From positions 1 to 27,481 of IMG/VR virus record IMGVR_UViG_3300028965_000054: a stretch of 27,481 nt of DNA. One strand, 5' to 3'. This stretch comes from a virus (Duplodnaviria > Heunggongvirae > Uroviricota > Caudoviricetes). The notes under the pieces were generated by a model. It made no database searches. It worked only from the letters and a program-made list of their open reading frames with translations, and was not told the DNA's origin. Shown one piece after another: positions 1,102-26,372 of this stretch (positions are counted from its first letter, which is position 1; every line of letters starts with the position of its first letter). Made by a program: the position numbers and the translations under genes.

Positions 1102-1689
1102 TCAGCGGGGTAATTTTTGTTTTGTTTCGGTTGAACTCTGATCGCCCTCCAAACTGGAGAAGCCATCAAGAGAGAGAGGCGGAGCAATCTGCCCCGTCGC
1201 AGCATTAGTTTGATTAAACATTACCCAATCCGAATACTTCCGAAAACGGGGATGATTCAAAATCAGGAGTAGCGTTTCTCCAGGTATCATTCTTCCCAAT
1301 ATTTCATAATTTTTGAGATTGTTTTGAGATACCCCTGTCACCTCTTCCATCGCTCTACGCGACAATCCCTCTGCCTCTCGAATCAGGCGGAGTTTTTCTC
1401 CAAGCTCAGATACCACTTCAGATCCACTACCAGCCAATGGCGTGGGTTCAATTTGCCCATTATCTGGAGACACTTGCCCCGTCATAAGCCAAAGCGCGTA
1501 TTTTTTGAACCTATCAACCTGTAAAACTCGCTCAACCAACTCTGCTCTAGCAGGCTGATGACCTGTTTCATATTTCTGAATAGTATTAAGTGGAATCCCT
1601 GTAATATCAGAGAATTGACGTCTGCTTAACTCTTCCGCCTCCCTCATTCTCATGAGTCTTTGCGAATAGTCTATTGACACGTTTCTCAT
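1102..1689 (-). CDS. Immunity repressor with two tandem HTH (XRE-like) domains
   Basis: 195 aa from ATG 1689..1687 preceded by AAGGAG; track ORF begins at upstream TTG. Two repeats of an HTH-like unit (LSRRQFSDITGIPLNTIQKYETG and LSRRAMEEVTGVSQNNLKNYEILG). Position and orientation match P2 C / 186 cI slot next to int, divergent from cox. Confidence 0.75.
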   Translation of the reverse strand: MRNVSIDYSQRLMRMREAEELSRRQFSDITGIPLNTIQKYETGHQPARAELVERVLQVDRFKKYALWLMTGQVSPDNGQIEPTPLAGSGSEVVSELGEKLRLIREAEGLSRRAMEEVTGVSQNNLKNYEILGRMIPGETLLLILNHPRFRKYSDWVMFNQTNAATGQIAPPLSLDGFSSLEGDQSSTETKQKLPR

Positions 1690-1740
1690 GTGAGAAATAT
1701 ACTCCTTTCTAAATTGAGAAATGCAAGAACAACTCAAATA

Positions 1741-4423: not shown

Positions 4424-4623
4424 ACGAAAGGACCTGGTTTCGCGCATACATGTGGGCGCTGGTATGCGCCCTCTTTTCTCTCATTCTGTATGCAGGACTA
4501 CTCCCCCGAATGATTTCATCAGACAGCTCCTTCCTGGTATTGCTGGGCATTTTCATTGCCATGCTGTACCCGGCAGGCGTTGTTCGCCTTTTCAGTAAGT
4601 ACATCAAGGAAATCAAACAATGA
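4420..4623 (+). CDS. Small integral membrane protein (two predicted TM helices)
   Basis: 67 aa; two hydrophobic stretches (WALVCALFSLILYAGLL and FLVLLGIFIAMLYPAGVV). Start and stop both overlap neighbours. Confidence 0.6.
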   Translation: MNERTWFRAYMWALVCALFSLILYAGLLPRMISSDSSFLVLLGIFIAMLYPAGVVRLFSKYIKEIKQ

Positions 4624-5450
4624 AGAAATTCAAACTCTTTCAGATTATCCCGCTTTTTGCCGCCATCCTGCTGGTTGGTTGCGATCGCGTTGAACCAGGT
4701 AATGTGGGCATCAAAGTCAACAAACTGGGCGACGATAAAGGCGTCGGTGAAGTGGTTGGCGTTGGCCGCTACTGGACAGGCTGGAATACCGAGGTTTACA
4801 TCTTCCCGACCTTCAAACAAATGAAGACCTACGATGAGCCGTTCAGCTTTCAGATGAGTGACGGCACAACCATCGGCTATCACATCGGTGTGGCCTACAA
4901 GGTTGATCCATCCAAAGTTACCACAGTGTTTCAGACCTACCGCAAAGGCGTGGATGACATTACCGACACTGACCTGCGCCAGAAGATCGCCGATGCACTC
5001 AACCGACTGGCCAGCAAAATGACCACCGATAAGTTTATCGACGGTGGTAAGTCTGAACTGCTGGATTCAGCACTTAAAGATATTCAAGAAGAGATGACCC
5101 CCATCGGCATTCAGGTCATGAGCCTCTCTTATGTCGGTAAACCGGAATATCCGCCAACCGTTATCGACAGCATTAACGCCAAAGTCACGGCAAACCAGAA
5201 AACCCTGCAACGCGAACAGGAAGTCAAGCAACGCGAAGCAGAAGCCAACATGCTGCGCGCAGAAGCTGCCGGACAGGCTGATGCCATTCGCACAAAAGCC
5301 CAGGCTGAAGCCGACGCCATTCGTTTACGCGGTGAAGCTCTGCGCCAGAATCCCGGCGTTATGGAGCTGGAAGCAATCAACAAATGGAACGGCACGCTAC
5401 CGCAATACATGACCAGCAATACCGCTGTTCCGTTTGTTCCGGTGAAGTAA
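4620..5450 (+). CDS. SPFH/band-7 (prohibitin/HflC-like) domain lipoprotein
   Basis: 276 aa; signal peptide with lipobox LVGC (Cys21). Central region followed by Ala/Glu/Arg-rich coiled-coil (QREQEVKQREAEANMLRAEAAGQADAIRTKAQAEADAIRLRGEALRQ) is typical of SPFH architecture. Last gene of coupled operon. Confidence 0.7.
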   Translation: MKKFKLFQIIPLFAAILLVGCDRVEPGNVGIKVNKLGDDKGVGEVVGVGRYWTGWNTEVYIFPTFKQMKTYDEPFSFQMSDGTTIGYHIGVAYKVDPSKVTTVFQTYRKGVDDITDTDLRQKIADALNRLASKMTTDKFIDGGKSELLDSALKDIQEEMTPIGIQVMSLSYVGKPEYPPTVIDSINAKVTANQKTLQREQEVKQREAEANMLRAEAAGQADAIRTKAQAEADAIRLRGEALRQNPGVMELEAINKWNGTLPQYMTSNTAVPFVPVK

Positions 5451-6121: not shown

Positions 6122-6511
6122 ATGATTGACCGTCACGACTTCGTAAAATGGGTGCGCACACAGGACACCCGTCTGGCCCCAAAACTTCAGGCAATGTTTG
6201 ATTTTTATCTCCGTGCCCGCGCCAGCCGGGCACGCACCACAAAACCGGAGAACGCAGACACCCTTTATTTCACCGTGGACGACTGTTACCGCGTAGCTTT
6301 CACGCCACAAGGTCTGGCCCTGTACACCCTGACACCACACGGCGACTCCCTGCTGGCGTATTACAACTCCCCGGCCTCCGTATTTGCGGCAATGCTGGCG
6401 CATCGTACCGCTGGCGGGTGTGCCTCGCTGAGTGAATACACCACTGAATTTAACCGCCTTTCCGTCATCTTCTCGCAGGAGTGGCAGCGCGTGACGGGAT
6501 ACCAGCCATGA
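6122..6511 (+). CDS. Hypothetical protein, translationally coupled to gpA-like gene
   Basis: 129 aa; stop overlaps the gpA ATG (ATGA at 6508-6511). Confidence 0.6.
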   Translation: MIDRHDFVKWVRTQDTRLAPKLQAMFDFYLRARASRARTTKPENADTLYFTVDDCYRVAFTPQGLALYTLTPHGDSLLAYYNSPASVFAAMLAHRTAGGCASLSEYTTEFNRLSVIFSQEWQRVTGYQP

Positions 6512-9348
6512 GTGAGTTTGCATGGAGCTGGAATGAACCGCAGCCAGCTATTGATCCGGACGACTTCGCGAACTTCAGCCAGTTGCCAAAAACCGGACTG
6601 CAACGCGCCATTCGTTACTACTATGAGGCGGACAAAAAGGCTCAGGAAGAACAGGATGCGAAGGAAGAAGCCTTTTTCGCACAATCCGCCATGGGTAAAA
6701 AACTCATGGCATCCCTTGAGGAAGCCGGGCAACGCGAAAAACTGATAAAAAACATCATCAGTAAGCGCCAGGAAATAAAGCAAGACCCGGTGGCCTGCGC
6801 CTTTGCCGAACTGAAGGCACTTCCCGTTTATCTGCGAGACCCCCTGAGCCGCCGCCTCTCTTTTTTACGTAAGAAGCAGGAATCTGACCGCCAGAAAGGA
6901 AAAAACGCCAGGCTGGCAGAACGCTATGCACAAGGAACCCTGCTCAAAATATTCAAACGTCTGAAACGCACTGACGGACGCTGGCTGACACCGTGTTATT
7001 GCTCCCTTGCCGGACGCGAACGCCTGGACGATTTGCTTTACCTGCCGCAGCTCAACAAACACCAGATACAGACGCTGGCCACCATGACGGCGGCGATGTT
7101 CAGCAGCACTTTTGAAACACTCTGCGATAACTTTGGCGCGACCGATGGCGAGCTGACCATGAAAATTGCGCTGAAGGCGTATCAGATGCTGGCCCGCATG
7201 GCGTTACATCTGCACACCATGCCGCCGCATTACGAAGCACTGAGAACGGACAAAGACCGGAAGAACGCACCGAATACGGAGCTGCTGCCGGGTGCCATCC
7301 TTCGCCTGACCTGTGCGGAATGGTGGAAACACAAACTGTGGCTTTTACGTTGCGAGTGGCGGGAAGAACAACTCCGTGCCGCCTGTCTGGTTTCCAGAAA
7401 AACATCACCCTATCTGAGCCAGGACGCGTTAAGCGAGTTTCGCGCACAGCGCGAGAAAACACGCGATTTTCTGAAAAGTTTCATGCTGGAAAATGAAGAC
7501 GGGTTCACGATTGATCTCGAGACGGTGTATTACGCGGGAGTAAGTAACCCGGTTCACCGTAAGGCAGAAATGATGGCCACCATGAAGGGACTGGAACTTC
7601 TGGCCGAAGCCCGTGGCGACAGAGCGGTGTTTCTGACTGTCACCTGCCCGTCAAAATACCACGCAACAACGGAGAACGGTCATCCGAACCCCAAATGGAA
7701 CGGGGCCACCATGCGCGACTCCAGCGATTACCTGGTTAACACGTTTTTTGCGGCGGTCCGCAAAAAACTGAACCGCGACGGTCTGCGCTGGTATGGCATC
7801 CGCACGGTGGAGCCTCACCATGACGGCACTGTGCACTGGCATATGATGGTCTTTGCACATCCGGACGAGATTGAAACCATCGTGTCCCACGTCTGCGATA
7901 TTGCCATTCAGGAAGACCGCCACGAGCTGGGCGATGACATAACTCCGCGTTTTAAGGCGGAGTACGTAGACGGCTCAAAAGGCACACCAACCAGCTACAT
8001 CGCCACCTACATCGGAAAGAACCTGGACAGCCGCGCCGTGGATGGCATCGACCCGAAAACGGGCAAGCCACGCGTTGACCACGAAACCGGAAAATCAATG
8101 GCCGAGAGCGTGGAACGCGCCATCGGCTGGGCGCGCCTTCACCGGGTCCGCCAGTTCCAGTTCTTTGGTATCCCCTCCCGTCAGGTGTGGCGTGAACTGC
8201 GCCGCCTTGCCAGCCAGATGGCACGCAACCCGGAAGGCCCGCAACGGCTGAAGGATGACGCAATGGACGCGGTACTCGCTGCCGCTGATGCCGGATGTTT
8301 TGCCACCTACATTGAGAAACAGGGTGGCGTACTTGTTCCACGCAAAGACTACCTGATTCGCACCGCCTACGACCTCGCAGATGAGCTGAACGATTACGGT
8401 GAACAGAGCGTACAGATTTACGGGATCTGGTCGCCGCTCATTGGGGAGTCTTCCCGCGTATGCACGCATCCGGATAACTGGAAGCTGGTAAGACGCAAAC
8501 CGGAAGCGGAAGACAGCGCCCGCGAAAATGGTTTTGACCTTCAGGGCGGCCCTGCCGCCCCTTGGACTCGTGGCAATAACTGTCCCCGTGTACAGGAAAC
8601 GGACAACAACGGGACAGAACAGCCGGAAGAACGGCCAGCACCGTGGCCGCAGCTCCCTGACGGCGTTGAAGTGAACGAATGGATGCGCTCACTGAAACGG
8701 CACGAACGCCGGGCGCTGATGCGTTCGCTTCGTGACAAACAGGCAAAAAACAGCAGTGATGAAATGCAGAGCTGGACACAGAGCCGCAAACAGCAGCGGC
8801 CTTTGCCTGATAACCACGAATTACTCGCTAAAGAATGGCGGGAGTCTGCTGAATCTCTCGGCCTGCATATCGGTGAACAACAGATGCAGCACCTGTTACG
8901 GGGCGGCAGTCTGTGCGTTGACGGCAGCATCATTGCACCGCAGGGATTTGAAATTGTACGCAAACCGGATACCCGCCCGGACAGCCGAATCACGCAGCTC
9001 TGGCAGCGCCTGAGCCGTAATCACGGCGTAAGCAGCACGGAGATCCGCCATAACCCGGTCGCCAGCTATCTGGCACAGCTGGGGGAATCAGACCCCGAAG
9101 CCGCCGCACGCCTGGCATCCACACTTCAGCAGGACCAGAACACCATGAAAACACCCGTTACCGTACTTTCTGACATGCTGCGCGCCATCCGCGACGCAGA
9201 GCACGAACAGAGAATCAGTGAAACAACTGAACGCGCCCGCCGCAAAGCAGACCTGCTGCGGGGTGGCCTGACCAGTGGAAACAAAAAACAGACAAAAACG
9301 GGATTCACAAATCCCGTAAATGAGCAAAAAACGCGCCGCTATATATGA
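6508..9348 (+). CDS. Rolling-circle replication initiator (P2 gpA-like HUH endonuclease)
   Basis: 946 aa from ATG 6508 (track ORF begins upstream in frame). HUH-type motif GTVHWHMMVFAHP; size and position match P2/186 A. About 185 aa longer than P2 A as I recall it. Confidence 0.85.
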   Translation: MSEFAWSWNEPQPAIDPDDFANFSQLPKTGLQRAIRYYYEADKKAQEEQDAKEEAFFAQSAMGKKLMASLEEAGQREKLIKNIISKRQEIKQDPVACAFAELKALPVYLRDPLSRRLSFLRKKQESDRQKGKNARLAERYAQGTLLKIFKRLKRTDGRWLTPCYCSLAGRERLDDLLYLPQLNKHQIQTLATMTAAMFSSTFETLCDNFGATDGELTMKIALKAYQMLARMALHLHTMPPHYEALRTDKDRKNAPNTELLPGAILRLTCAEWWKHKLWLLRCEWREEQLRAACLVSRKTSPYLSQDALSEFRAQREKTRDFLKSFMLENEDGFTIDLETVYYAGVSNPVHRKAEMMATMKGLELLAEARGDRAVFLTVTCPSKYHATTENGHPNPKWNGATMRDSSDYLVNTFFAAVRKKLNRDGLRWYGIRTVEPHHDGTVHWHMMVFAHPDEIETIVSHVCDIAIQEDRHELGDDITPRFKAEYVDGSKGTPTSYIATYIGKNLDSRAVDGIDPKTGKPRVDHETGKSMAESVERAIGWARLHRVRQFQFFGIPSRQVWRELRRLASQMARNPEGPQRLKDDAMDAVLAAADAGCFATYIEKQGGVLVPRKDYLIRTAYDLADELNDYGEQSVQIYGIWSPLIGESSRVCTHPDNWKLVRRKPEAEDSARENGFDLQGGPAAPWTRGNNCPRVQETDNNGTEQPEERPAPWPQLPDGVEVNEWMRSLKRHERRALMRSLRDKQAKNSSDEMQSWTQSRKQQRPLPDNHELLAKEWRESAESLGLHIGEQQMQHLLRGGSLCVDGSIIAPQGFEIVRKPDTRPDSRITQLWQRLSRNHGVSSTEIRHNPVASYLAQLGESDPEAAARLASTLQQDQNTMKTPVTVLSDMLRAIRDAEHEQRISETTERARRKADLLRGGLTSGNKKQTKTGFTNPVNEQKTRRYI

Positions 9349-9390
9349 AGCGCGCATAAAACAGGCAAAAACGGGATTTCAGAATCCCGT
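9298..9390. repeat. Two identical-arm 20-bp palindromes (ACGGGATT-N4-AATCCCGT) 73 bp apart; candidate parC/ParR operator
   Basis: Copy 1 at 9298..9317 (inside gpA 3' end), copy 2 at 9371..9390, each in the context CAAAAACGGGATT...AATCCCGTAAA. GCGCGC-containing inverted repeat between them around the gpA stop. Confidence 0.6.
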
Positions 9391-9424
9391 AAACGATTAA
9401 TTAATCAACATAAGGAAAAGCGAC

Positions 9425-10384
9425 ATGAAAATTTGTATCGATGACGGCTCCACCAACATCAAGCTGGCATGGACTGAGAACGGCGAACGCCGCAACGCCA
9501 TCAGCCCGAACAGCTTCAAGTCGGAATGGTCTGCGCCGTTCGGTGGCACGCAGCCCGCGAACTACATGCTTGATGGTGTGCGCTATGGTTTTGATCCGGT
9601 CAGCGATCGCTTTGTCCAGACGACCGACACGCAATACCAGTACAGCGATGTGAATGTCATTGCCATTCATCACGCGCTGGTCAAATCAGGCATCACGCCA
9701 CAGGAGGTGGATGTGGTTGTCACCCTGCCACTGAGCGAGTATTTCGACACAAACGCACAGCCGGACATGGCCAACATCAACCGCAAAAAAGCGAACGTTA
9801 TGCGCCCGGTGGAGTACCAGAACGGCGAGACATTCACTATCCGTAACGTGCGGGTTATGCCTGAATCCATTCCGGCTGGCTTTAAAGCACTGGCTGACAT
9901 GAGTCCGTTTGAATCCCTGCTGATTGTGGATTTGGGCGGAACCACGCTGGATGTGGCAAAGGTTCAGGGGCAACTGGCAGGTATCAGCCAGGTGTTTTGC
10001 GATCCACACGTAGGCGTTTCTCTGATGGCCGATGCCGTGCTGTCGGTGATGGCCACCAACGGTATGCGCACCAGTCACCACATCGCCAATACCATTATCG
10101 AACATCGCCACGATGAAGCCTGGCTGCGCCAGCACATCCACAATGACACGCATTACGCCAGCCTGATGGCAGTTATTCGTGAAAAGGAGGAAACACTGAA
10201 ACAACGCGTGATCCGCGCGCTGGCGGGTTTTTCGGGTTACGGGCGGGTGATGGTTGTAGGTGGAGGAGCGGAGATTGTGGCACCCGCTATCCGCGAAGCC
10301 TGCGGAGTTAATGCGACTTTCATCGCGGACGGGGTGCCACAATTTGCTCTGGTTAATGGGCTGTACGCAATGGACAAGGAGTAA
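9425..10384 (+). CDS. parM: ParM/StbA-like actin-type partition ATPase
   Basis: 319 aa; N-terminus MKICIDDGSTNIKLAW...ISPNSFK...YSDVNVIAIHHAL closely parallels recalled plasmid R1 ParM (MLVFIDDGSTNIKLQW...ISPNSFK...YSDVNVVAVHHAL). AAGGA RBS. Confidence 0.88.
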   Translation: MKICIDDGSTNIKLAWTENGERRNAISPNSFKSEWSAPFGGTQPANYMLDGVRYGFDPVSDRFVQTTDTQYQYSDVNVIAIHHALVKSGITPQEVDVVVTLPLSEYFDTNAQPDMANINRKKANVMRPVEYQNGETFTIRNVRVMPESIPAGFKALADMSPFESLLIVDLGGTTLDVAKVQGQLAGISQVFCDPHVGVSLMADAVLSVMATNGMRTSHHIANTIIEHRHDEAWLRQHIHNDTHYASLMAVIREKEETLKQRVIRALAGFSGYGRVMVVGGGAEIVAPAIREACGVNATFIADGVPQFALVNGLYAMDKE

Positions 10385-10388
10385 ATCA

Positions 10389-10703
10389 ATGACGACACCA
10401 ACCAGACGGATAAGTTTCTATCTGAAGCCCGCCGTCGTCAAGAGCGAACGGGAGGCGTGCAGTTACCTCGACAGCCTGCCAGCCTCCGAACGCAGCCGCG
10501 CACAACGCGCGGCTTTTCTGGCTGGACTGGCTCTTATAAAACGCACCCCCGCGTTGGCGTATTCGCTGGCAGAATGGTCAGAAGACGAAATAAGGATGCC
10601 ACCGCTACCAGTACAGCCTGAAAAACCGGCGCAACCAGCAGCAGACAGCGCCCCCCATATGCAGCAGGTGAAAAAGAATATTCAGGCGTTTTTCCCGAAG
10701 TGA
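10389..10703 (+). CDS. parR: ParR/StbB-like centromere-binding protein
   Basis: 104 aa from ATG 10389 (AAGGAG RBS inside parM 3' end). RRISFYLKPAVV...YLDSLPASERSRAQRAAFLAGLAL parallels recalled R1 ParR (RTIAFKLNPDV...TLDSIPQGERSRLNRAALTAGLAL). Confidence 0.8.
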   Translation: MTTPTRRISFYLKPAVVKSEREACSYLDSLPASERSRAQRAAFLAGLALIKRTPALAYSLAEWSEDEIRMPPLPVQPEKPAQPAADSAPHMQQVKKNIQAFFPK

Positions 10704-10717
10704 AAACAGGAGTAACT

Positions 10718-11005
10718 ATGTCCACCATTACCAAAGAATGGTTACAACGTAAAATCACAGAGTTTAAATCGTGGCGCGAAGACATCCCGTTCGGTCTTGA
10801 TGAAGACGATCACAATATGTTAATCGCACTGGAAATCGCACTTGCATCACTGGAAGCAGAGCCAGTGGCATGGATGCACGCAAATAATCCTATTGGAATA
10901 CCGGCGATAACAAGAAGTAAAGATGTTGCAGACAGCTGGCGCTCTAAGGGATGGAATGTATTGCCTCTTTATTCACTGACCCGCTCCATCAATTTATGCC
11001 ATTAA
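10718..11005 (+). CDS. Hypothetical protein (AT-rich cargo)
   Basis: 95 aa from ATG 10718 with AGGAG RBS; region visibly lower in GC than flanking phage genes. Confidence 0.55.
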   Translation: MSTITKEWLQRKITEFKSWREDIPFGLDEDDHNMLIALEIALASLEAEPVAWMHANNPIGIPAITRSKDVADSWRSKGWNVLPLYSLTRSINLCH

Positions 11006-11016
11006 TGGAAGTAATC

Positions 11017-11376
11017 ATGATGAAAGATAATTCCGGAAGCCAGCGTGCATCAGTTGCAGTTATGGTAATGATTAAATTTGTGAAACAGTACACCGGAAAG
11101 CCAATCTCGCTCCGGCAATTAAGCAAAGAAACCGTTTCACTGTCATATCTGGAGCAAATATTCAGATATTTACGGGAAAGTAGCCTGGTAAAAGCCACAC
11201 GCGGCCCGGGTGGTGGATATATCCCAACAAAAGAAAATTACAGTGTTGGTGATATTGTCCGGGCAATGAAATGTTCCGGATTATATACACAGCACGTTAT
11301 TCTGGCTGCACTGGATAATATTTCTTTAACCAGCCTGCAGGAAGACACAAATTATCAGTTGTCTGCCATTGAATAA
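11017..11376 (+). CDS. Rrf2-family HTH transcriptional regulator, short form without Fe-S cysteine triad
   Basis: 119 aa; Rrf2 signature ISLRQLSKETVSLSYLEQIFRYLRESSLVKATRGPGGGY (compare recalled IscR [29 protein letters not shown]). Only one Cys. AT-rich. Confidence 0.75.
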   Translation: MMKDNSGSQRASVAVMVMIKFVKQYTGKPISLRQLSKETVSLSYLEQIFRYLRESSLVKATRGPGGGYIPTKENYSVGDIVRAMKCSGLYTQHVILAALDNISLTSLQEDTNYQLSAIE

Positions 11377-18500: not shown

Positions 18501-19210
18501 CGCGCCCCGTGATTAACGAGTCACAACTCCGGCAGGTTCGTCGCGCCATCAGAGAGGCAGAACTTCCGCCGGCAAAGGCCAGAAAGCTGCTGGTTCGCAT
18601 TGCGAAATACGGCCTGATACCGGCTGCTCGACGCAATGTGAAAGCACAGCGAACACCGGAGGGGGCAGCCTGGGCACCACGAAAAAGACCGGATAAAGCC
18701 AGCGGCAGGTATAAAAACAAAATGCTGCTGGGACTGCCGAAACTGCTGGCCATCAGGGTTGACGGCAGCGGGAAAAGTGTCCGCCTTTTCTTCAAAAAAG
18801 GGGATTACAACACCGGCTCTCATGGTGGGGCGGTCGCGTGGGTGCAACAGCACGGCGCAACCATCAAAGGCCGCGCCACAAAACGCCGGGACAGCGAAGC
18901 CATGCGCACCCGTCCCGCCACACGACGGCAGGCAGAACGCCTTCTTTCTCTGGGCTTTCGCGCCCCCGTCGGCGCAGTCAGCAAAAAAACCGGACGCAGG
19001 GGACGCAGAAAGCCTTCTCTGAAATGGATTATGGAAAACATGAGTATGGCGCAGGCCGGATTGGTGATCAGCATTCTGAAAGGCGAGCAGAAAAAACGTG
19101 TATGGGAAATCAAAATCCCCTCCCGCGCATTTCTGGGAGCCAGCGATGCTGAATTTGCCCGCATTCTGGAGGCGCAGCTGCGCAGCCTGCATTACGGCGG
19201 CACGAGATAA
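18497..19210 (+). CDS. Virion morphogenesis / tail completion protein (gpS-like)
   Basis: 237 aa; WAP...R...G then AWVQQHGA resembles the gpS/Mu G virion-morphogenesis pattern. Start overlaps upstream stop. Confidence 0.55.
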   Translation: MTRPVINESQLRQVRRAIREAELPPAKARKLLVRIAKYGLIPAARRNVKAQRTPEGAAWAPRKRPDKASGRYKNKMLLGLPKLLAIRVDGSGKSVRLFFKKGDYNTGSHGGAVAWVQQHGATIKGRATKRRDSEAMRTRPATRRQAERLLSLGFRAPVGAVSKKTGRRGRRKPSLKWIMENMSMAQAGLVISILKGEQKKRVWEIKIPSRAFLGASDAEFARILEAQLRSLHYGGTR

Positions 19211-19229
19211 CAAAATCAGGAGACAAATT

Positions 19230-20378
19230 ATGACCTGGCCATCTGTCACAATTGAACAGTACAACACGTTCAGTAGCTCGCCGGACGGCGTGGAAAATAC
19301 GCTGCTGTTTGTGGGCAATGCACAAAACAACAAAGGTAAGGTTCTGCCGGTTAATGCCAACAGTGATCTGGATGAGCTACTGGGAACGAACGCCAGCCCG
19401 CTGAAGAACTTCCTTCGGTCTGCGCTGACCAATGCCGGACAGAATGCCTTTTTCTATGTTGCCGTTCTGCCGGAAGCCGGCAAAGGCAAAGAAGCGACGC
19501 CAGCCTGCCAGGTATGGCAGAACGCCATACTGGCGGCTCAGGAAACTGTTTCAGTTGAAGGCGTGGTGATCACCGAACCGGTCAGCACGAAGGATGACAT
19601 CAACGCCATACAGGCGTTACGTCAGACCATCATCAATAAATATCAGCGCCGCATCTGGTTCATTCTGACCATTGCCGCCAATAACGGCAGCAAAACCTGG
19701 GCAGATTACGTTGCTGAACTGACCACGCTACAGGAAGGCATCGCCGCCCCGCAAATCATGCTGGTTCCGGAAATTTTTGGATTTGAACCGGGCGTTCTTG
19801 CCGGCCGTCTGTGTAACAGCGCCGTCACCATTGCTGACAGTCCGGCGCGTGTGGCAACCGGGGCGCTGTCCGCACTGAAGACCACGGAACGCCCGAAAGA
19901 CAGCGCAGGGCAGGCAATTGATCTCGACACTCTGCAGGCACTGGCAACCGCCCGCTACAGCGTGCCCATGTGGTATGCCGACTATGACGGCCTTTACTGG
20001 GCTGACGGTGTAACACTTGAGGTGGAAGGCGGGGACTACAACGTCATTGAGCATGTCCGCATTGCTGATAAGGTGGCGCGCCGCGTGCGGCTGATGGCCA
20101 TCCCCAAGATTGCCGACCGCTCGCTGAACAGCACGCCGGGCAGCATTGCCGCACATGAAACGCTGTTTGCCCGCCCACTGCGTGCTATGGCGAAATCCAT
20201 GCAAATTAACGGCATCACGTTTCCGGGTGAAGTGAAATCCCCAAAAAAAGGCGACGTGGTTATCACCTGGCAGGACGAAAAGACGGTCAGCATCAGCATT
20301 GTCGTCCGCCCTTACGCCTGCCCTAAAACCATCAAAGTGGGCATTCAGCTGGATAAATCTCTGGAGGAAAACGCATGA
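19230..20378 (+). CDS. Putative tail sheath protein
   Basis: 382 aa from ATG 19230 with AGGAGA RBS; precedes and overlaps a ~150-aa tube-sized gene (sheath-tube arrangement). Not P2 FI-like in sequence. Confidence 0.5.
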   Translation: MTWPSVTIEQYNTFSSSPDGVENTLLFVGNAQNNKGKVLPVNANSDLDELLGTNASPLKNFLRSALTNAGQNAFFYVAVLPEAGKGKEATPACQVWQNAILAAQETVSVEGVVITEPVSTKDDINAIQALRQTIINKYQRRIWFILTIAANNGSKTWADYVAELTTLQEGIAAPQIMLVPEIFGFEPGVLAGRLCNSAVTIADSPARVATGALSALKTTERPKDSAGQAIDLDTLQALATARYSVPMWYADYDGLYWADGVTLEVEGGDYNVIEHVRIADKVARRVRLMAIPKIADRSLNSTPGSIAAHETLFARPLRAMAKSMQINGITFPGEVKSPKKGDVVITWQDEKTVSISIVVRPYACPKTIKVGIQLDKSLEENA

Positions 20379-20830
20379 CGACCCGCATTAACGGCATGGC
20401 GTTTGACACTTTTATCGGTGGAACGGATATCCATGTGAAAAGCATCTCACTGGACATCAGCGATGAAAGCGCCGTTGCCAAAACCCGTGGCATCCCTGAC
20501 GGCAAACTGCGCGGCCCTGTCAGTGCCGAAGGTGAAATCGAAATGAGTACCCGCAGCTTTAACCAGCTCGGGGAAGTGGCTGCTCAGGCGGGATCGTGGC
20601 GTGACCTGCCGCCAATGGATTTTGTGTTTTACGCCAATACGGGAACCGAAGAAATCCGCGTTGAAGCCTTCGGTTGTGAGCTGATGCTTTCCGGCCTGTT
20701 AAGCATTGACACCGAGAGCGCAGATCTGACCACGCACAAAATCAAGTACGTGGTGGCAAGCCCTGACTTTGTGCGTATCAACGGCGTGCCCGTTCTCTCA
20801 GAGAACGACGTGCGCGGACTGATGGGGTGA
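20375..20830 (+). CDS. Putative tail tube protein
   Basis: 151 aa; GGAGG RBS; start overlaps sheath-like stop. Confidence 0.5.
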   Translation: MTTRINGMAFDTFIGGTDIHVKSISLDISDESAVAKTRGIPDGKLRGPVSAEGEIEMSTRSFNQLGEVAAQAGSWRDLPPMDFVFYANTGTEEIRVEAFGCELMLSGLLSIDTESADLTTHKIKYVVASPDFVRINGVPVLSENDVRGLMG

Positions 20831-20833
20831 ACC

Positions 20834-21130
20834 ATGCAGGAGCATGAGCGCACCATTATCACTCTGGGCATTCTGGGCGGAATCGCTGCCGCAAGTCGGG
20901 TGCTGGCTGGCGCAGAGCCGATTACGTTGCGGTTGTTTGTGGGCCGAACCCTGCTGGGGAGCGCGCTGGGTGTTTCTGCCGCTGCCCTGCTGGTTCGCTA
21001 CCCGAACCTTGACCCACTGGCCATTGCCGGCGCAGGCACCGCAATGGGCGTTGCCGGTTACCAGATTGTTGAAATCTTCCTGCGTCATATGCGCCGGAAG
21101 CTGGGCGAGAAAGAGAACAAAGAGGAGTAA
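20834..21130 (+). CDS. Membrane protein, putative holin
   Basis: 98 aa with 2-3 hydrophobic segments and charged C-terminus (RRKLGEKENKEE); two genes upstream of the endolysin. Confidence 0.45.
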   Translation: MQEHERTIITLGILGGIAAASRVLAGAEPITLRLFVGRTLLGSALGVSAAALLVRYPNLDPLAIAGAGTAMGVAGYQIVEIFLRHMRRKLGEKENKEE

Positions 21131-21135
21131 CAGCA

Positions 21136-21243
21136 ATGCTGTCCCGCAGGGAACAAAAAGCTGCCGCCATTGCCTGGAAAATTATCCGGGCACTGTGGTA
21201 CTGGCTGCGCAAACCTCAGCAACCTCATAAGGAGCAAAAATGA
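21136..21243 (+). CDS. Small ORF (35 aa) between holin-like gene and endolysin
   Basis: Hand translation MLSRREQKAAAIAWKIIRALWYWLRKPQQPHKEQK; its TGA overlaps the endolysin ATG. Below track cutoff. Confidence 0.3.
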   Translation: MLSRREQKAAAIAWKIIRALWYWLRKPQQPHKEQK

Positions 21244-21581
21244 AACTCTCCGATAAGCAACAACAATTTACCGTCATGATCGGAAAACTCATCCAGTTTG
21301 CCCATCAGCGCGGTTATGGCCTGACGTTCGGTGAGGCGTACCGCACGCCAGAACAGGCAAAACTCAACGCACAAAAGGGATCCGGCATTGCCAACAGCCT
21401 GCACTGCCAGCGGCTGGCCGTGGATTTTAATCTGTTTATTAACGGTGAATATCAGACCCGCACAGAGGCCTACCGCGAGCTGGGCGAGTACTGGGAATCC
21501 CTTGGTGGCGCATGGGGCGGTCGTTTTAAAAACCGCCCGGATGGCAATCATTTCAGCCTTGAGCACGACGGCGTGCGCTGA
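21240..21581 (+). CDS. Endolysin, peptidase M15-type (L-alanyl-D-glutamate / VanY-like)
   Basis: 113 aa; His/Asp-containing blocks (SLHCQRLAVDF, DGNHFSLEHD) fit small zinc-dependent M15 endolysins. Confidence 0.7.
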   Translation: MKLSDKQQQFTVMIGKLIQFAHQRGYGLTFGEAYRTPEQAKLNAQKGSGIANSLHCQRLAVDFNLFINGEYQTRTEAYRELGEYWESLGGAWGGRFKNRPDGNHFSLEHDGVR

Positions 21582-21588
21582 TTTTACG

Positions 21589-21618
21589 CTTAATAAGCCT
21601 TCCTGCAGGCTTATTAAG
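21589..21618 (+). terminator. Hairpin after endolysin
   Basis: CTTAATAAGCC-ttcctgca-GGCTTATTAAG (11-bp stem) followed by pyrimidine-rich CCCTCTTATTCTT. Confidence 0.45.
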
Positions 21619-21645
21619 CCCTCTTATTCTTGACTTTAAAAGGAA

Positions 21646-21939
21646 ATGATGATGAACGATAAAAACACCCAGACTACCGCAGAGAACACCATCACTTTAC
21701 AGGTCGGCGAACATGAACTGACGTTTATCCCGACCGTAAAAGCCTACAACGACCTGCAGAACGACTTCATGCCGGATAACAAAATCGCGCCGCTGAAAAA
21801 CTACCTGCGCCGTATCGTGATTAAAGAGCACCGCGATCTGCTGAACCAGTTGCTGGAAAAACCAGGAATGCCGGCCAGCCTGGCAACAGCCGTGAATAAC
21901 GAGTTTGTGCCGGAAGTGGAAATCACCGTAAAAAAATAA
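21646..21939 (+). CDS. Tail assembly chaperone (P2 gpE / lambda gpG analogue)
   Basis: 97 aa, directly upstream of the tape measure gene; ends ...ITVKK on an A-run. Confidence 0.65.
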   Translation: MMMNDKNTQTTAENTITLQVGEHELTFIPTVKAYNDLQNDFMPDNKIAPLKNYLRRIVIKEHRDLLNQLLEKPGMPASLATAVNNEFVPEVEITVKK

Positions 21940-22127
21940 AAAGCCATCTGGGGGCCATTGATCGCAATGACCTTACCCGGATGCTGATTCTGCGCCGCCA
22001 CTGGCTGCCCGGCGAGGATGACTCGCCGCAGTCACTGGCTGCCGCCGTCTGGCTGGATAACCACTACTGGGAAAATATGAGCATCGCCGTCAATAACGGC
22101 ATTATCCGTGCTTTTAAGGGATCGTAA
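21933..22127 (+). CDS. -1 frameshift extension of the tail assembly chaperone (gpE'/GT analogue)
   Basis: Slippery heptamer A_AAA_AAA at 21930-21936. The -1 frame stays open for 64 codons (hand-translated ...KIKSHLGAIDRNDLTRMLILRRHW...IIRAFKGS) to TAA 22125-22127, overlapping the tape measure ATG; no RBS or ATG of its own. Confidence 0.55.
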   Translation, partial: KIKSHLGAIDRNDLTRMLILRRHWLPGEDDSPQSLAAAVWLDNHYWENMSIAVNNGIIRAFKGS

Positions 22128-24223
22128 TGTCACAACAGCGCCTTGAATTACTTCTTGAACTGACAGACCGCCTGACAAGGCCGTTGCGTGCAGCCGGGCG
22201 ACAGGTTCAGGGATTTGCTGCAACAAGTCGGGGAGCCTTTCGGGACATTGCTACCGGAGGCGCTGCGCTCTGGGGAGTGGGTGCAGCCATTCAGGGGGCA
22301 CTGATGCCAGCCATTGAAATGGACAGGGCGCTCGGTGAGGTGAAATCACTGGGCGTCGCAGAGTCCGGATTGCGTAAACTCAGCCGCGCCGCCGTTGATT
22401 TCACTATGGAATACGGCGGGGCTGCGCAGGATTTTGTGCGTGCTTCTTACGACATCCAGTCAGCCATTGCCGGGTTAACTGATGATGAGCTGTCCCGCTT
22501 CACCACCGCATCAGCAACGGTAGCAGCAGCAACCAAATCCAGCAGCCAGACCATTACCGCCTACATGGGCACCATGTACGGCATCTTTAAAGACCAGGCT
22601 GATGCCATGGGAAAAAGCAAATGGGTGGAGCAGGTCGCCGGGCAAACCGCCACCGCCGTGCAAATGTTTAAAACAACCGGCGATAACATGTCAGCGGCGT
22701 TCACCACGCTGGGTGCCAGTGCAAAAGCGGCCGGTATTGATGCGGCTGAACAGTTCGCCGTGCTGGGACAACTTCAGGCCACCATGAGTGGCAGCGAGGC
22801 CGGGACAAAGTACAAGGCATTTCTTGCCGCAGTAGGCAGCGCCCAGAAAAAGCTGGGGCTTAATTTCGTGAATAAAGACGGCACGATGAAAAGTGTTGTC
22901 GAGATCATGAAACTTATCAGGGGTAAATTTGGTGATCTGTCAAAAGTGGCTGATTCCGATTTGCTGAAAAGCGCCTTTGGCTCCGATGAAGCTGTGGCCA
23001 TGATTAAATTACTCAATGCGGACATTGGCGGACTTGAAAAGAATATCGCCACGCTGGGCAATATCAAAGGTATGGATAAGGCTGTCGAAATGGCGCAGGC
23101 CATGGCTGATCCATGGGAACAGGCCGCTGCAATTATTAACGGCATTCGCATCGAAATTGGCACGCAGTTGCTGCCTGTTCTGTACCCGTTTATCCAGAAA
23201 AGCAACGAAGGCGGTAAATCCTTTGTTGCCTGGCTACGTCTGTATCCCAATATCACACGGGCCATTGGTTTACTGTCTGCCGCCCTGCTGGGCATTGCCG
23301 CAGTGGGTGCTGTTGTCAACATTATGGTGGGTGTGGCGAAGTTTGTCTGGACAGGACTGCGGCTGGTCTGGCTGGCAGCCGTTGCGCCGCTGAAGATTCT
23401 CATTCTGCTGAAACGCACACTGACGGCTACCATGTGGGCATTCACTGTAGTTGCCCGAACGGTCAGGGCGCTGTATCTGGCCATGTCCATTGCTATGGGA
23501 ACATACAACGTCAAAGCAAAAATTCAGCTGGCGCTGCTGAAATTACAGCGCGCCGGACTCTGGCTTTATTCTGTTGCGCTGGGTGCCGCCGGCATAGCAA
23601 TGAAAATCTACACCGCAGTCACCAGCGGAGCCGCAATTGCAACACAGTTACTTTTCAGCCCCATCACATTAATCATCCTGGCACTGGCTGCGCTGGGCGT
23701 GGGCATTTATTTCCTGATCACCCGCTGGGATGAAATCAAAGCTGCACTGATGGATACCGCTGCATTTCAGTGGGTTGCCGGCATCATTAACAGCATGGGG
23801 GCGTGGTTCGGCAATGCATGGAGTGCAATCAGGGATGGCTGGAATGCACTGGTTAACTATTTTTCCACCCATTCACCACTGGATGCCCTGAAGGATCTCG
23901 CGGGTGGCATACTGAATATTTTCAGCAACCTCTGGGAACTGGTGAAACAGTCCTTCAGTGATTCATGGGGCTGGATTGTGGACAAACTCAACATGATCCC
24001 CGGCGTTAACATCGGCACATCAGAAAGCACAGGAAGTGGCGAAGGCTCCGTATTAACCGGCGGTAAAGCCATCAGCGCGGGGCCGGGTGGCATTGCGGCA
24101 GAAATGCAGAACAACAGCGAAAACCAGACCACCATCGACAACTCCCGTCGTGTGGTCAACGTCAATGTGCAGGATCCATCCCCTGCCCGTCTTAACGAGT
24201 GGATGGAGCTGCATGCATACTGA
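22127..24223 (+). CDS. Tail tape measure protein
   Basis: 698 aa; Ala/Gly-rich with long hydrophobic repeats in the C-terminal half and canonical position after the chaperone pair. Confidence 0.85.
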   Translation: MSQQRLELLLELTDRLTRPLRAAGRQVQGFAATSRGAFRDIATGGAALWGVGAAIQGALMPAIEMDRALGEVKSLGVAESGLRKLSRAAVDFTMEYGGAAQDFVRASYDIQSAIAGLTDDELSRFTTASATVAAATKSSSQTITAYMGTMYGIFKDQADAMGKSKWVEQVAGQTATAVQMFKTTGDNMSAAFTTLGASAKAAGIDAAEQFAVLGQLQATMSGSEAGTKYKAFLAAVGSAQKKLGLNFVNKDGTMKSVVEIMKLIRGKFGDLSKVADSDLLKSAFGSDEAVAMIKLLNADIGGLEKNIATLGNIKGMDKAVEMAQAMADPWEQAAAIINGIRIEIGTQLLPVLYPFIQKSNEGGKSFVAWLRLYPNITRAIGLLSAALLGIAAVGAVVNIMVGVAKFVWTGLRLVWLAAVAPLKILILLKRTLTATMWAFTVVARTVRALYLAMSIAMGTYNVKAKIQLALLKLQRAGLWLYSVALGAAGIAMKIYTAVTSGAAIATQLLFSPITLIILALAALGVGIYFLITRWDEIKAALMDTAAFQWVAGIINSMGAWFGNAWSAIRDGWNALVNYFSTHSPLDALKDLAGGILNIFSNLWELVKQSFSDSWGWIVDKLNMIPGVNIGTSESTGSGEGSVLTGGKAISAGPGGIAAEMQNNSENQTTIDNSRRVVNVNVQDPSPARLNEWMELHAY

Positions 24224-24563
24224 TAAACCGCTTTACATTGATTTGCTCATCACCGGCCGCAATCTCACGCTGAACAGCGCCAGTGAGCCGGTGTTATGCA
24301 ACAACAGGGAAAGTATTGCCCAGGACTGCCAGCACGCCATCATTGAGAGCGGACTGGCAACGCGCCTGCTGGCTGAAAAAAGCCCGACGCTTCGTGCCGA
24401 CATCATGATGCAGATGACACTGCTGATTGAAGATGATGAGCGCATCACACCTGGCACGGTCAGTGTGACAGAAGAAACCCCGCTTTCTGGTCGCCTGCTG
24501 ATTAGCGCCCACACCGAAGATTTTTTTGAACCCCTGACTTTTACGGTATCTCTTGATGATTAA
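24213..24563 (+). CDS. Hypothetical tail/baseplate protein (gpW-sized)
   Basis: 116 aa from ATG 24213; sits between tape measure and baseplate J-like gene. Confidence 0.45.
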   Translation: MHTDKPLYIDLLITGRNLTLNSASEPVLCNNRESIAQDCQHAIIESGLATRLLAEKSPTLRADIMMQMTLLIEDDERITPGTVSVTEETPLSGRLLISAHTEDFFEPLTFTVSLDD

Positions 24564-25740: not shown

Positions 25741-26372
25741 AACTTCCGGAGATCCCTGAATTCCCGCTCCCCACCTGGATGAATAAAGGCGAGCCGTTAA
25801 CGCTGGCACATTCATCGCATCGCTACTGGGAAAAGGTATACAGCTGGCTGACGTGGCCACTACAGCAGATTGATGTCGACACCTGTGCAGAGCCTTTACT
25901 TAACCTGCTGGCTTATCAGCGCAATATCACCCGATTTAAAGGTGAGCCGGTTTCGTTATTTCGCTTAAGAGTGAAACACGCGTTTATTAACGCTCAGGAC
26001 TCTGGCGAACGCGCCGGCTTCGAACGCATCTTTAAGCGTCTTGGCGTGGGAGACGTTAAAACACTGGAACGGCAACTGCAGCATGACTGGGACGTTATTT
26101 TACTGCGCATTAATGACACCCAGTTAAGTGAAAACAACGCGCTGATGATGCAGCTCGTGCGCCAGTATGGTCGTACCTGCAGGCGTTATTTCTTTCAGGT
26201 AATCAATACAACCACTGCCCGGCTGACAGCCGGCACATTTGATGGCCATTACAGGTATCACACAGCAGAAGCAACGGTGAGAAAGGACACCATCTGGTTA
26301 ACCGCTTCGCTACAGGCAGGACATTACGGCCTGTCCGTGGAGCATTACACATTACAGGCAGACGAAGCATGA
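25737..26372 (+). CDS. Putative tail protein (gpI-like by position)
   Basis: 211 aa starting at GTG 25737 overlapping upstream stop; lies between J-like gene and tail fibre as gpI does in P2. Confidence 0.45.
   Translation: MKLPEIPEFPLPTWMNKGEPLTLAHSSHRYWEKVYSWLTWPLQQIDVDTCAEPLLNLLAYQRNITRFKGEPVSLFRLRVKHAFINAQDSGERAGFERIFKRLGVGDVKTLERQLQHDWDVILLRINDTQLSENNALMMQLVRQYGRTCRRYFFQVINTTTARLTAGTFDGHYRYHTAEATVRKDTIWLTASLQAGHYGLSVEHYTLQADEA

What the first reader, a model, noticed from the sequence alone, without database searches (positions are those of the whole stretch)
9298..10703. Plasmid-type ParM/ParR partition system in an integrase-bearing P2-like prophage
ParM and ParR homologues (clear N-terminal similarity to recalled R1 ParM/ParR) sit immediately after the replication initiator, in the slot where P2 carries tin/old cargo. 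An actin-type segregation system in a temperate phage that also has an integrase suggests it may persist as an episome as well as integrate, or that ParMR has been repurposed.
Basis: partly seen in the sequence, partly recalled or inferred. Interest (0 to 1): 0.6.

Follow-up and report, generated by a model that had tools for sequence, protein, structure and literature searches.

The report
ParMR partition cassette in P88-like prophage
An intact actin-type DNA-segregation gene pair (parM/parR) sits right behind the replication gene of a P2-like E. coli prophage; this is real, but it is the same cassette already annotated in phage P88 and already proposed in print to allow an episomal state, and its actual job is still untested.

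Summary
parM (9425-10384) and parR (10389-10703) are intact, translationally coupled genes of the R1 family. They lie 77 bp after the rolling-circle initiator gpA, in the slot where P2 carries orf91/tin/old. Two 20-bp palindromes precede them.

The cassette is not new. ParM is 98-99% identical to that of phage P88 (Xuanwuvirus), and public records already name it ParM. It occurs in 1304 of 5426 complete E. coli genomes, at 1442 chromosomal places out of 1444. Pfeifer et al. [quoted passage not shown]

This work adds four points:
- Phage-borne ParMs form one clade across Escherichia, Salmonella, Hafnia, Plesiomonas, Serratia and Enterobacter, always between gpA and the portal gene.
- parM is under strong purifying selection (dN/dS about 0.05).
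- The likely centromere is two GGG-N10-CCC dyads 72-73 bp apart, not R1's roughly ten direct iterons.
- No promoter of its own was detected.

My best reading is a working ParMRC machine that acts on the transient circular phage genome after infection or induction. A stable plasmid lysogen is unlikely but not excluded.

The parts
6481..9348 (+). gpA, the rolling-circle replication initiator (955 aa). It is the upstream neighbour, and the same transcription unit is inferred.
   Evidence: Pfam Phage_GPA 6.4e-128; PHROG 91 'nicking at origin of replication'
8547..8585 (+). Probable ori (nick region) inside gpA, about 0.7 kb upstream of the first dyad.
   Evidence: Aligns with the annotated P2 ori nick region; GCAATAACTGT and flanking bases are conserved. 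Inferred, not shown.
9282..9396 (.). Candidate centromere/operator (parC-like): two 42-nt repeat units 73 bp apart, each carrying one dyad.
   Evidence: Direct repeat D1, 83% identity. The same two-site layout at 72-73 bp is found in the Hafnia and Plesiomonas relatives.
9298..9317 (.). Dyad 1, ACGGGATTcacaAATCCCGT, lying inside the last codons of gpA.
   Evidence: The GGG/CCC cores are conserved among 78 close relatives, with single-sided changes and no compensatory ones.
9371..9390 (.). Dyad 2, ACGGGATTtcagAATCCCGT, 35 bp before the parM ATG.
9397..9424 (+). Conserved leader (TTAATTAATCAACATAAGGAAAAG) with the Shine-Dalgarno sequence.
   Evidence: ATTAATCAA...TAAGGA is shared with Hafnia and Plesiomonas. 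CATAAGGA is shared with the R1-type leader.
9425..10384 (+). parM, an actin-fold segregation ATPase (319 aa).
   Evidence: Intact in 81 of 81 close loci; median dN/dS 0.05.
10389..10703 (+). parR, a ribbon-helix-helix adaptor (104 aa). It has a conserved N-terminus (RRISFYLKP), a hypervariable proline-rich linker and a conserved C-terminal tail (KKNIQAFFPK).
10718..11376 (+). Variable cargo after parR: a 95-aa ORF (PHROG 660, 10718-11005) and an Rrf2-family regulator (11017-11376). These are not part of the partition system.
   Evidence: Shared by only 37 of the 1305 matching E. coli records.

Best explanation
This is a functional R1-family type II (ParMRC) DNA-segregation module. It has long been part of the replication module of one lineage of integrating P2-like phages.

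Shown here: ParM is an intact actin-fold ATPase. ParR is an intact RHH adaptor that keeps both its DNA-binding N-terminus and its C-terminal tail. Both are under purifying selection and have diverged together with the phage.

Inferred mechanism:
1. ParR dimers bind the two GGG-N10-CCC dyads at 9298-9317 and 9371-9390, close to the gpA origin.
2. ParM filaments capped by ParR tails push sister phage circles apart.
3. Because the prophage is normally integrated, the substrate is the transient circular genome made after infection or after excision, while gpA is replicating it.
4. The genes are probably read through from the early (cox-B-A) operon, so they are on only when circles exist.

The pay-off would be that both daughter cells inherit a circle before integration, giving more lysogens, and/or that replicating genomes are dispersed for efficient replication and packaging. 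This would resemble srpMRC of the ICE R391 and AlpAC of prophage CGP3.
For: Identity and integrity of the genes.

Selection: parM is intact in 81 of 81 close loci, with median dN 0.004, dS 0.096 and dN/dS 0.05. parR is intact wherever the contig allows, with conserved ends and a variable linker.

Lineage:
- Every ParM at least 54% identical to this one is flanked by gpA and by portal/terminase wherever the contig reaches them. None of those at 53% or below is.
- The phage ParMs are monophyletic in an NJ tree, in 74 of 100 bootstraps.
- Gene order is the same in Hafnia, Plesiomonas, Serratia and Enterobacter.

Cis site:
- Two dyads lie 72-73 bp apart in three diverged lineages.
- The half-site AA(T/A)CCC resembles the R1 iteron core AAACCC.

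Transcription and position:
- The cassette is on the same strand as gpA, with gaps of 77 nt (gpA-parM) and 4 nt (parM-parR).
- No plus-strand terminator and no sigma-70 promoter was found between gpA and parM.
- The ori motif lies about 0.7 kb upstream.

Integrated state is the rule.

Precedents: srpMRC stabilises the excised, rolling-circle-replicating ICE R391 (PMC4489591). AlpAC links circular CGP3 DNA to actin-like filaments and is needed for efficient replication (PMC4446434).
Against: - No experiment exists for this cassette. None was found in the searched literature.
- Only two dyads (four half-sites) are present, against about ten iterons in R1. They could be an operator rather than a centromere.
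- ParR binding to the dyads is inferred only.
- The promoter scan is a crude consensus test, so a promoter of its own, and expression in lysogens, cannot be excluded.
- In P2-type phages Cox couples excision to lytic growth. That leaves little time for a cell-division-linked segregation machine to matter.
Confidence: 0.55

Rival explanations
1. Dual lifestyle. The phage can lysogenise either by integration or as a stably inherited low-copy plasmid prophage, and ParMRC provides partition in the plasmid state. 2021.
For: - A 34,461-bp circular record filed as a plasmid is a complete P88-like phage with int, gpA, parM and parR, and also carries a hok gene. A 99.9% identical copy is integrated in another strain.
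- P88 was picked up in a phage-plasmid screen (PMC7969092).
- Plasmid prophages exist among related phages: the P2-like phage KS14 with ParA (PMC3091744), and D6 with a StbA-type ParM 48% identical to this one.
Against: - 1442 of 1444 places in complete E. coli genomes are chromosomal.
- Only 1 of 72,556 PLSDB records is a phage-sized circle, and it could simply be induced replicative DNA.
- The Plesiomonas relative carries an integrase next to the module, and the Serratia and Enterobacter relatives lie on contigs of 0.47 and 2.3 Mb.
- Identical ParM and ParR occur in two prophages of one genome.
- No replicon other than the gpA rolling-circle initiator was seen in the early region. gpA should be repressed in a lysogen.
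Confidence: 0.17
2. Repurposed cytoskeleton. ParM filaments organise or position replicating phage DNA during lytic growth (AlpC-like) and have no role in inheritance at cell division.
For: - The cassette sits next to the initiator and ori, and co-orientation with the early operon suggests lytic-phase expression.
- CGP3 AlpAC provides a precedent.
- The reduced two-dyad site differs from classical centromeres.
Against: ParM and ParR keep every hallmark of the segregating R1 family, including the C-terminal tail motif. Nothing in the sequence separates positioning from partition. This reading overlaps with the best explanation.
Confidence: 0.18
3. Lysogenic-conversion or interference function. 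Prophage ParR/ParM expressed in the lysogen acts in trans on plasmids or incoming phages that carry similar sites, causing partition incompatibility or exclusion.
For: - The slot is the P2 tin/old exclusion-gene position.
- The half-site core resembles R1 iterons.
- ParR exists as very different alleles, 53% identical, beside near-identical ParM.
Against: - No PADLOC match.
- Unlike tin/old, the genes are co-oriented with the early operon, and no promoter of their own was detected.
- The cassette is the conserved part of the slot, not the variable cargo.
Confidence: 0.06
4. The palindromes are minus-strand intrinsic terminators that insulate gpA from antisense transcription. They are not ParR sites.
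For: Both palindromes score as terminator-like on the minus strand: an 8-bp stem followed by TTTTGyCTGT. Hairpins fold at about -10.5 kcal/mol.
Against: - In Hafnia and Plesiomonas the sites keep GGG-N10-CCC and the 72-73 bp spacing, but have only 3-4 bp stems with 10-nt loops and no T-run.
- The commonest P88 allele interrupts the T-run.
- Arm changes are single-sided, with no compensatory change.
- A separate terminator-like site already follows ogr at 11393-11381.
Confidence: 0.08
5. The cassette is a decaying, non-functional plasmid remnant.
For: Truncated ParM protein clusters exist in E. coli: 188-261 aa, about 1,600 member sequences, against about 5,650 full-length ones.
Against: - Both ORFs are intact here and in 81 of 81 sampled close relatives, with dN/dS 0.05.
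- Catalytic motifs are invariant.
- The cassette has been retained across genera at 54-63% identity.
Confidence: 0.02

Closest known systems
parM/parR of Escherichia phage P88 and other Xuanwuvirus (Peduoviridae) phages and prophages
   Same: It is the same cassette. ParM is 98-99% identical, DNA is 93-98% identical over gpA-end/parM/5' parR, and the position after gpA is the same. These records already annotate it as 'plasmid segregation protein ParM / partition protein'. PHROGs 691 and 2515 cover the two proteins. Pfeifer et al. 2021 noted the partition genes and proposed that P88 has both episomal and integrative states.
   Different: - The window carries a different ParR allele, about 53% identical to the P88-type allele from residue 15 or so onward.
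- The cargo after parR differs: a 95-aa ORF plus an Rrf2 gene.
- ogr lies next to the portal gene.
- The tail module is not in P2 order.
ParMRC (parA locus) of plasmid R1/NR1, the type II partition prototype
   Same: - ParM is 47% identical over its full length, with all nucleotide-binding motifs.
- ParR has the RHH N-terminus (43% identity) and the C-terminal KKN[AI]xx[LF] tail.
- The operon order is parC-parM-parR.
- The leader CATAAGGA and the AAnCCC repeat core are shared.
   Different: - R1 parC is about ten 11-12-bp direct AAACCC iterons in two blocks around a promoter. Here there are two inverted dyads 73 bp apart, and no recognisable promoter between them.
- The host replicon is an integrating, rolling-circle phage, not a theta-replicating low-copy plasmid.
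- This ParR lacks an 11-residue segment of the C-terminal domain.
srpMRC of SXT/R391 integrative conjugative elements (Carraro et al. 2015, PMC4489591)
   Same: A ParMRC-type system on an element that normally sits integrated in the chromosome. There it acts on the excised circle, which is replicated by the element's relaxase, and it lowers loss of the element. The logic is the same as proposed here for gpA-replicated phage circles.
   Different: Only distantly related in sequence. It sits on a conjugative element, not a phage, and its function has been demonstrated experimentally.
AlpAC/alpS of Corynebacterium glutamicum prophage CGP3 (Donovan et al. 2015, PMC4446434)
   Same: An integrated prophage that encodes an actin-like filament former and a DNA-binding adaptor. 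The adaptor binds upstream of its own operon. The genes are induced early after excision and are required for efficient replication of circular phage DNA.
   Different: A different actin-like family in a Gram-positive host. The gene order is adaptor then actin. No sequence relationship was tested here.
Plasmid prophages with partition systems: D6 (StbA/ParM-type) and Burkholderia P2-like phage KS14 (ParA)
   Same: D6 carries a ParM 48% identical to this one. KS14 shows that a P2-like phage can live as a plasmid.
   Different: Those phages are maintained extrachromosomally. KS14 has RepB and ParA genes and no gpA match to P2. The present lineage has a tyrosine integrase and is found integrated.

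Membership tests
Type II (ParMRC, R1-type) partition system | Actin-fold ATPase ParM with phosphate-1, phosphate-2 and adenosine motifs | tested here: met
   Pfam StbA_N 1.5e-82 plus ParM C-terminal domain 2.6e-68. PDB R1 ParM 1e-93. 47% identity to R1-type ParM. D6-D7-G8-S9-T10, E147, D169-G171-G172-T173-T174 and G279-G281-A282 are invariant in 19 diverse ParMs.
Type II (ParMRC, R1-type) partition system | Small ribbon-helix-helix adaptor ParR encoded directly downstream of parM | tested here: met
   PF10784 4.4e-24. The family profile hits pB171 ParR 2jd3 at 1.8e-12. The ATG is 4 nt after the parM stop and has an AAGGAG Shine-Dalgarno sequence.
Type II (ParMRC, R1-type) partition system | ParR C-terminal tail that docks into ParM | tested here: inconclusive
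   The C-terminal motif [KR]xN[IA]xx[LFM][FI]P is conserved in all phage ParRs and aligns with the R1 tail KKNAMKLIN. Binding itself cannot be tested here.
Type II (ParMRC, R1-type) partition system | Cis-acting centromere parC: an array of repeated ParR sites upstream of parM, usually overlapping the par promoter | tested here: inconclusive
   Two conserved dyads lie 73 bp apart upstream of parM. The classical tandem array of direct iterons, seen in the R1-type locus L117, is absent. No sigma-70 promoter was detected. ParR binding is not testable with these tools.
Type II (ParMRC, R1-type) partition system | Stabilises an otherwise unstable replicon; ATP-dependent dynamic filaments | not testable with these tools
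   Needs a plasmid-loss assay and biochemistry or microscopy.
Phage-plasmid (extrachromosomal prophage: P1, N15, D6, KS14) | Prophage is inherited as an autonomous replicon in lysogens | tested here: not met
   1442 of 1444 places in 5426 complete E. coli genomes are chromosomal. The Serratia and Enterobacter relatives are on contigs of 0.47 and 2.3 Mb. The single exception is the circular 34.5-kb record NZ_CP148288.1.
Phage-plasmid (extrachromosomal prophage: P1, N15, D6, KS14) | Plasmid-type maintenance replicon active in the lysogen | tested here: not met
   Pfam scans of the early region found only the gpA rolling-circle initiator.
P2-like phages (Peduoviridae; P88-like/Xuanwuvirus early and head modules) | Int, C-type repressor, Cox, gpA, Ogr, portal Q, terminase P, scaffold O, capsid N and small terminase M in P2-like arrangement | tested here: met
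   DNA is 93-98% identical to P88-group phages across gpA-end/parM.
P2-like phages (Peduoviridae; P88-like/Xuanwuvirus early and head modules) | P2-type tail gene module and order | tested here: not met
   The tail region runs DUF2586 protein, tape measure (22127-24223), DUF2590 protein, baseplate J (24553-25740). This differs from the tail gene order of the P88-like record L001 and marks a mosaic.

The most novel reading that the evidence does not exclude
Integrating P2-like phages use a streamlined ParMRC with a minimal two-dyad centromere as a replication-coupled genome-distribution device. It would be switched on only while gpA-made circles exist. It would measurably raise lysogenisation efficiency, or burst size, or both. 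That would make actin-type segregation a normal part of the infection cycle of a prophage family present in about a quarter of E. coli genomes. The sharply divergent ParR alleles would then serve to keep co-resident phages from cross-talking.
Probability: 0.3. Interest if true: 0.6.

Novelty: already known. Interest (0 to 1): 0.35.

Why it matters
The cassette sits in roughly 24% of complete E. coli genomes and in related prophages of at least five other enterobacterial genera. It is kept under strong purifying selection, yet nobody has shown what a plasmid partition machine does for a phage that integrates.

A clear answer would:
- place these phages on the phage-plasmid continuum;
- show whether actin-like segregation helps establish lysogeny or helps replication, as it does in the ICE R391 and in prophage CGP3;
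- reveal whether prophage ParR interferes with IncFII/R1-type plasmids;
- possibly deliver a very compact centromere (about 95 bp, two dyads) for synthetic replicons.

The necessary experiments are simple.

Tried and rejected
- **Minus-strand terminator reading of the palindromes.** The scan flags both. I rejected it as the conserved function because hairpin strength and T-runs are lost in Hafnia and Plesiomonas while the GGG-N10-CCC geometry and 72-73 bp spacing are kept. P88 alleles also change one arm only.
- **An autoregulated sigma-70 promoter between or after the dyads, as in R1.** None passed the scan, and manual inspection found only weak hexamers.
- **Further copies of the dyad elsewhere in the window.** None were found.
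- **Defence-system reading.** No PADLOC hit for ParM, ParR, the two cargo genes or four other early-region ORFs.
- **NCBIfam.** It gave only sub-threshold hits for ParM and none for ParR, so it was uninformative.
- **Whether the strain with the circular 34.5-kb 'plasmid' also has an integrated copy.** Its assembly did not appear in the E. coli collection: there was no self-hit, and a guessed chromosome accession was not found. This stays unresolved.
- **Incompatibility test using co-resident prophages.** Only three pairs were available. One pair has identical ParM and ParR. That is suggestive, not a statistic.
- **Literature searches for a functional study of P88-type parMR.** Nothing was found. 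Several word-start hits were false (Parma, Parmley).
- **Procedural losses.** One paper fetch went to a wrongly guessed PMC id.

Full report
**Observation**

- parM (9425-10384, + strand, 319 aa) matches both Pfam ParM domains, at 1.5e-82 and 2.6e-68.
- It matches R1 ParM crystal-structure sequences at 1e-93. It is 47% identical to an R1-type ParM along its whole length.
- The actin-fold nucleotide-binding motifs are invariant across 19 diverse ParMs.
- parR (10389-10703, 104 aa from the conserved ATG) starts 4 nt after the parM stop, behind an AAGGAG Shine-Dalgarno sequence.
- parR matches PF10784 at 4.4e-24 and is 43% identical to R1 ParR over the N-terminal 63 residues.
- As a family profile, ParR hits the pB171 ParR structure at 1.8e-12.
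- The rolling-circle initiator gpA (6481-9348) ends 77 bp before parM.
- An integrase, a two-HTH repressor, Cox, Ogr, portal, large and small terminase, scaffold and a P2-family capsid protein surround the cassette.
- In phage P2 the segment after gene A carries orf91, tin, old and cos, so the 'slot' statement holds.
- Two perfect 20-bp palindromes, ACGGGATTnnnnAATCCCGT, lie at 9298-9317 (inside the end of gpA) and at 9371-9390. They are the only perfect copies in the window, against 0.07 matches (at up to 3 mismatches) expected by chance.

**What the element is**

The DNA is 93-98% identical to phage P88 and other Xuanwuvirus records across gpA-end/parM/5' parR. Those records already annotate ParM and a partition protein. 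PHROGs has families for both proteins.

The segment occurs in 1304 of 5426 complete E. coli genomes. Of 1444 places, 1442 are on chromosomes and 2 on plasmids.

The match to most relatives stops inside parR. Only 37 records also share the downstream 95-aa ORF and Rrf2 gene. So parMR is the conserved edge of the replication module, and the variable hotspot begins within or after parR.

More distant ParMs (54-63% identity) from Hafnia, Plesiomonas, Serratia and Enterobacter all show the same order: gpA, parM, parR, variable cargo (HicAB, KAP NTPase, small ORFs), ogr and/or portal, terminase.

In a species-level sample of 58 ParM loci plus these, every ParM at least 54% identical to the window's is flanked by gpA and by portal/terminase wherever the contig extends that far. 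No ParM at 53% or below is. The phage-context ParMs are monophyletic in an NJ tree, in 74 of 100 bootstraps, and R1 ParM lies in another clade. This points to one old acquisition followed by co-divergence with the phages.

**Is it functional?**

- parM is intact in 81 of 81 close loci, with median dN 0.004, dS 0.096 and dN/dS 0.05.
- parR is intact wherever the contig reaches it.
- Across alleles and genera, ParR keeps the N-terminal beta-strand region (RRISFYLKP). It also keeps a C-terminal motif ([KR]xN[IA]xx[LF]FP) that aligns with the R1 ParR tail. The linker between them is hypervariable. That is the pattern expected for an adaptor that must still bind DNA and ParM.
- Truncated ParM clusters exist in E. 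coli, as expected from ordinary prophage decay. This copy is not one of them.

**The cis site**

The two dyads lie within a 42-nt direct repeat whose copies are 73 bp apart. Plesiomonas and Hafnia relatives also have two GGG-N10-CCC sites, 72 and 73 bp apart. In each, the second site lies shortly before a conserved ATTAATCAA...TAAGGA leader.

A consensus scan flags both window dyads as minus-strand terminators. I do not think that is their conserved function, for two reasons:
- In Hafnia and Plesiomonas the stems shrink to 3-4 bp with 10-nt loops and there is no T-run.
- Among 78 close relatives the arms change on one side only, and the commonest allele breaks the T-run.

A protein-binding site fits better. 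The half-site AA(T/A)CCC resembles the AAACCC core of the R1-type iterons, and the CATAAGGA leader is shared with R1.

The architecture differs from R1, however. R1-type parC has about ten direct iterons in two blocks around the promoter. Here there are two inverted dyads, and no sigma-70 promoter passes the scan. Serratia and Enterobacter relatives have yet another layout, with long inverted arms 26-28 bp apart.

ParR binding to the dyads is an inference.

**Anatomy bearing on timing**

- The cassette is on the gpA strand.
- The gaps are 77 nt (gpA-parM), 4 nt (parM-parR), 14 nt (parR to the 95-aa ORF) and 11 nt (to the Rrf2 gene).
- There is no plus-strand terminator between gpA and parM.
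- By contrast, P2's tin and old are on the opposite strand with their own transcript starts.
- The P2 ori nick motif aligns to about 8547-8585, roughly 0.7 kb upstream of dyad 1.

Together these suggest expression with the early replication operon, next to the origin.

**Episome or not**

Evidence against a regular plasmid state:
- The chromosomal location is overwhelming.
- The Plesiomonas relative has an integrase next to the module, and the Serratia and Enterobacter relatives lie on large contigs.
- No second replicon is present.
- Two distinct prophages in one genome carry identical ParM and ParR.

Evidence for an occasional episome:
- PLSDB holds one circular 34,461-bp record that is a whole P88-like phage. 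It also carries a hok gene.
- A 99.9% identical copy is integrated in a different isolate.

I could not check whether the first strain also has an integrated copy. The circle may simply be induced replicative DNA.

**Prior knowledge**

- Pfeifer et al. 2021 listed P88 among putative phage-plasmids. [quoted passage not shown]
- The P88 paper reports a mitomycin-inducible, integrated prophage with a 14-bp attP and does not mention partition (PMC5285337).
- A Citrobacter study lists the phiSM homologue merely as a 'fitness' gene (PMC6456863).
- I found no functional study.

Functional precedents for partition systems on integrating elements:
- srpMRC of the ICE R391 stabilises the excised, relaxase-replicated circle (PMC4489591).
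- AlpAC of prophage CGP3 links circular phage DNA to actin-like filaments and is needed for efficient replication (PMC4446434).
- KS14 shows that a P2-like phage can be a plasmid prophage, using ParA (PMC3091744).
- D6 is a plasmid prophage with a ParM 48% identical to this one.

**Verdict**

The cassette is an already annotated, already discussed feature of P88-like phages, so I rate it 'already known'.

The most likely mechanism is a working ParMRC that acts on transient circular phage genomes during early infection or after induction. I put this at 0.55. A stable plasmid-lysogen lifestyle is a minority possibility at about 0.17.

Points worth following up:
- the phage-specific ParM clade;
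- the two-dyad centromere candidate;
- the lack of a promoter of its own;
- the deeply split ParR alleles beside near-identical ParM.

Interest is moderate (0.35). It is an open and easily testable question about a very common prophage, but not a surprise to specialists.

Noticed in passing
window 10389-10703, compared with L003-L082: ParR occurs as sharply different alleles. The window type and the P88 type are about 53% identical from residue 15 or so onward, with a hypervariable proline-rich linker. The adjacent ParM is 98-99% identical throughout. A recombination boundary therefore lies inside parR. This could reflect avoidance of ParR cross-talk between co-resident phages, or simple hotspot mosaicism.
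   Followed up: partly
window 19098-27133: The tail module is not in P2 order: DUF2586 protein, tube-like ORF, holin and M15 endolysin in the middle, tape measure at 22127-24223, DUF2590 protein, baseplate J at 24553-25740. The element is therefore a mosaic of P88-like early and head genes with a different contractile-tail cassette.
   Followed up: partly
window 10718-11376: The cargo after parR is a 95-aa PHROG-660 ORF plus an Rrf2-family (IscR-like, below cut-off) regulator. This pair accompanies parMR in only 37 of 1305 E. coli records. Neither has a PADLOC match, and their function is unknown.
   Followed up: partly
window 4620-5450: An SPFH/Band-7 family protein (276 aa, PF01145 5.7e-31) is encoded within the early operon between the MarR-like gene and the Ash-like gene. 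This is unusual cargo for a P2-like early region.
   Followed up: no
window 1102-1737 (minus strand): The immunity repressor candidate is 211 aa and has two separate HTH domains (residues 28-73 and 111-154). P2 C is 99 aa, and related prophages L001 and L089 have 95-100-aa repressors. The immunity region is therefore swapped in this phage.
   Followed up: no
L001 (NZ_CP148288.1) 1291-1431: The circular 34.5-kb P88-like record carries a Hok/Gef toxin gene near ogr, in addition to parMR. These are the same two stability functions as the parA and parB loci of plasmid R1 (that comparison is from general knowledge, not a tool result). It also carries a Com/methyltransferase pair.
   Followed up: no
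window 9282-9396 (minus strand): In the window both dyads are followed on the minus strand by TTTTGyCTGT and score as intrinsic terminators. They may have a secondary insulating role against antisense read-through from the ogr/portal side in the E. coli clade only.
   Followed up: yes
L091, L118, L119, L133: Enterobacterial ParM loci appear in assemblies labelled Vagococcus (97% identical to the window ParM, with gpA and portal), Streptomyces morookaense, Clostridiales and Lachnospiraceae. These are most likely contaminating contigs in those genome records.
   Followed up: no
window 6481-9348: gpA is 955 aa, against 761 aa in P2. The alignable part ends near residue 759, so about 195 C-terminal residues have no P2 counterpart. 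Dyad 1 is embedded in the last codons of this extension.
   Followed up: no
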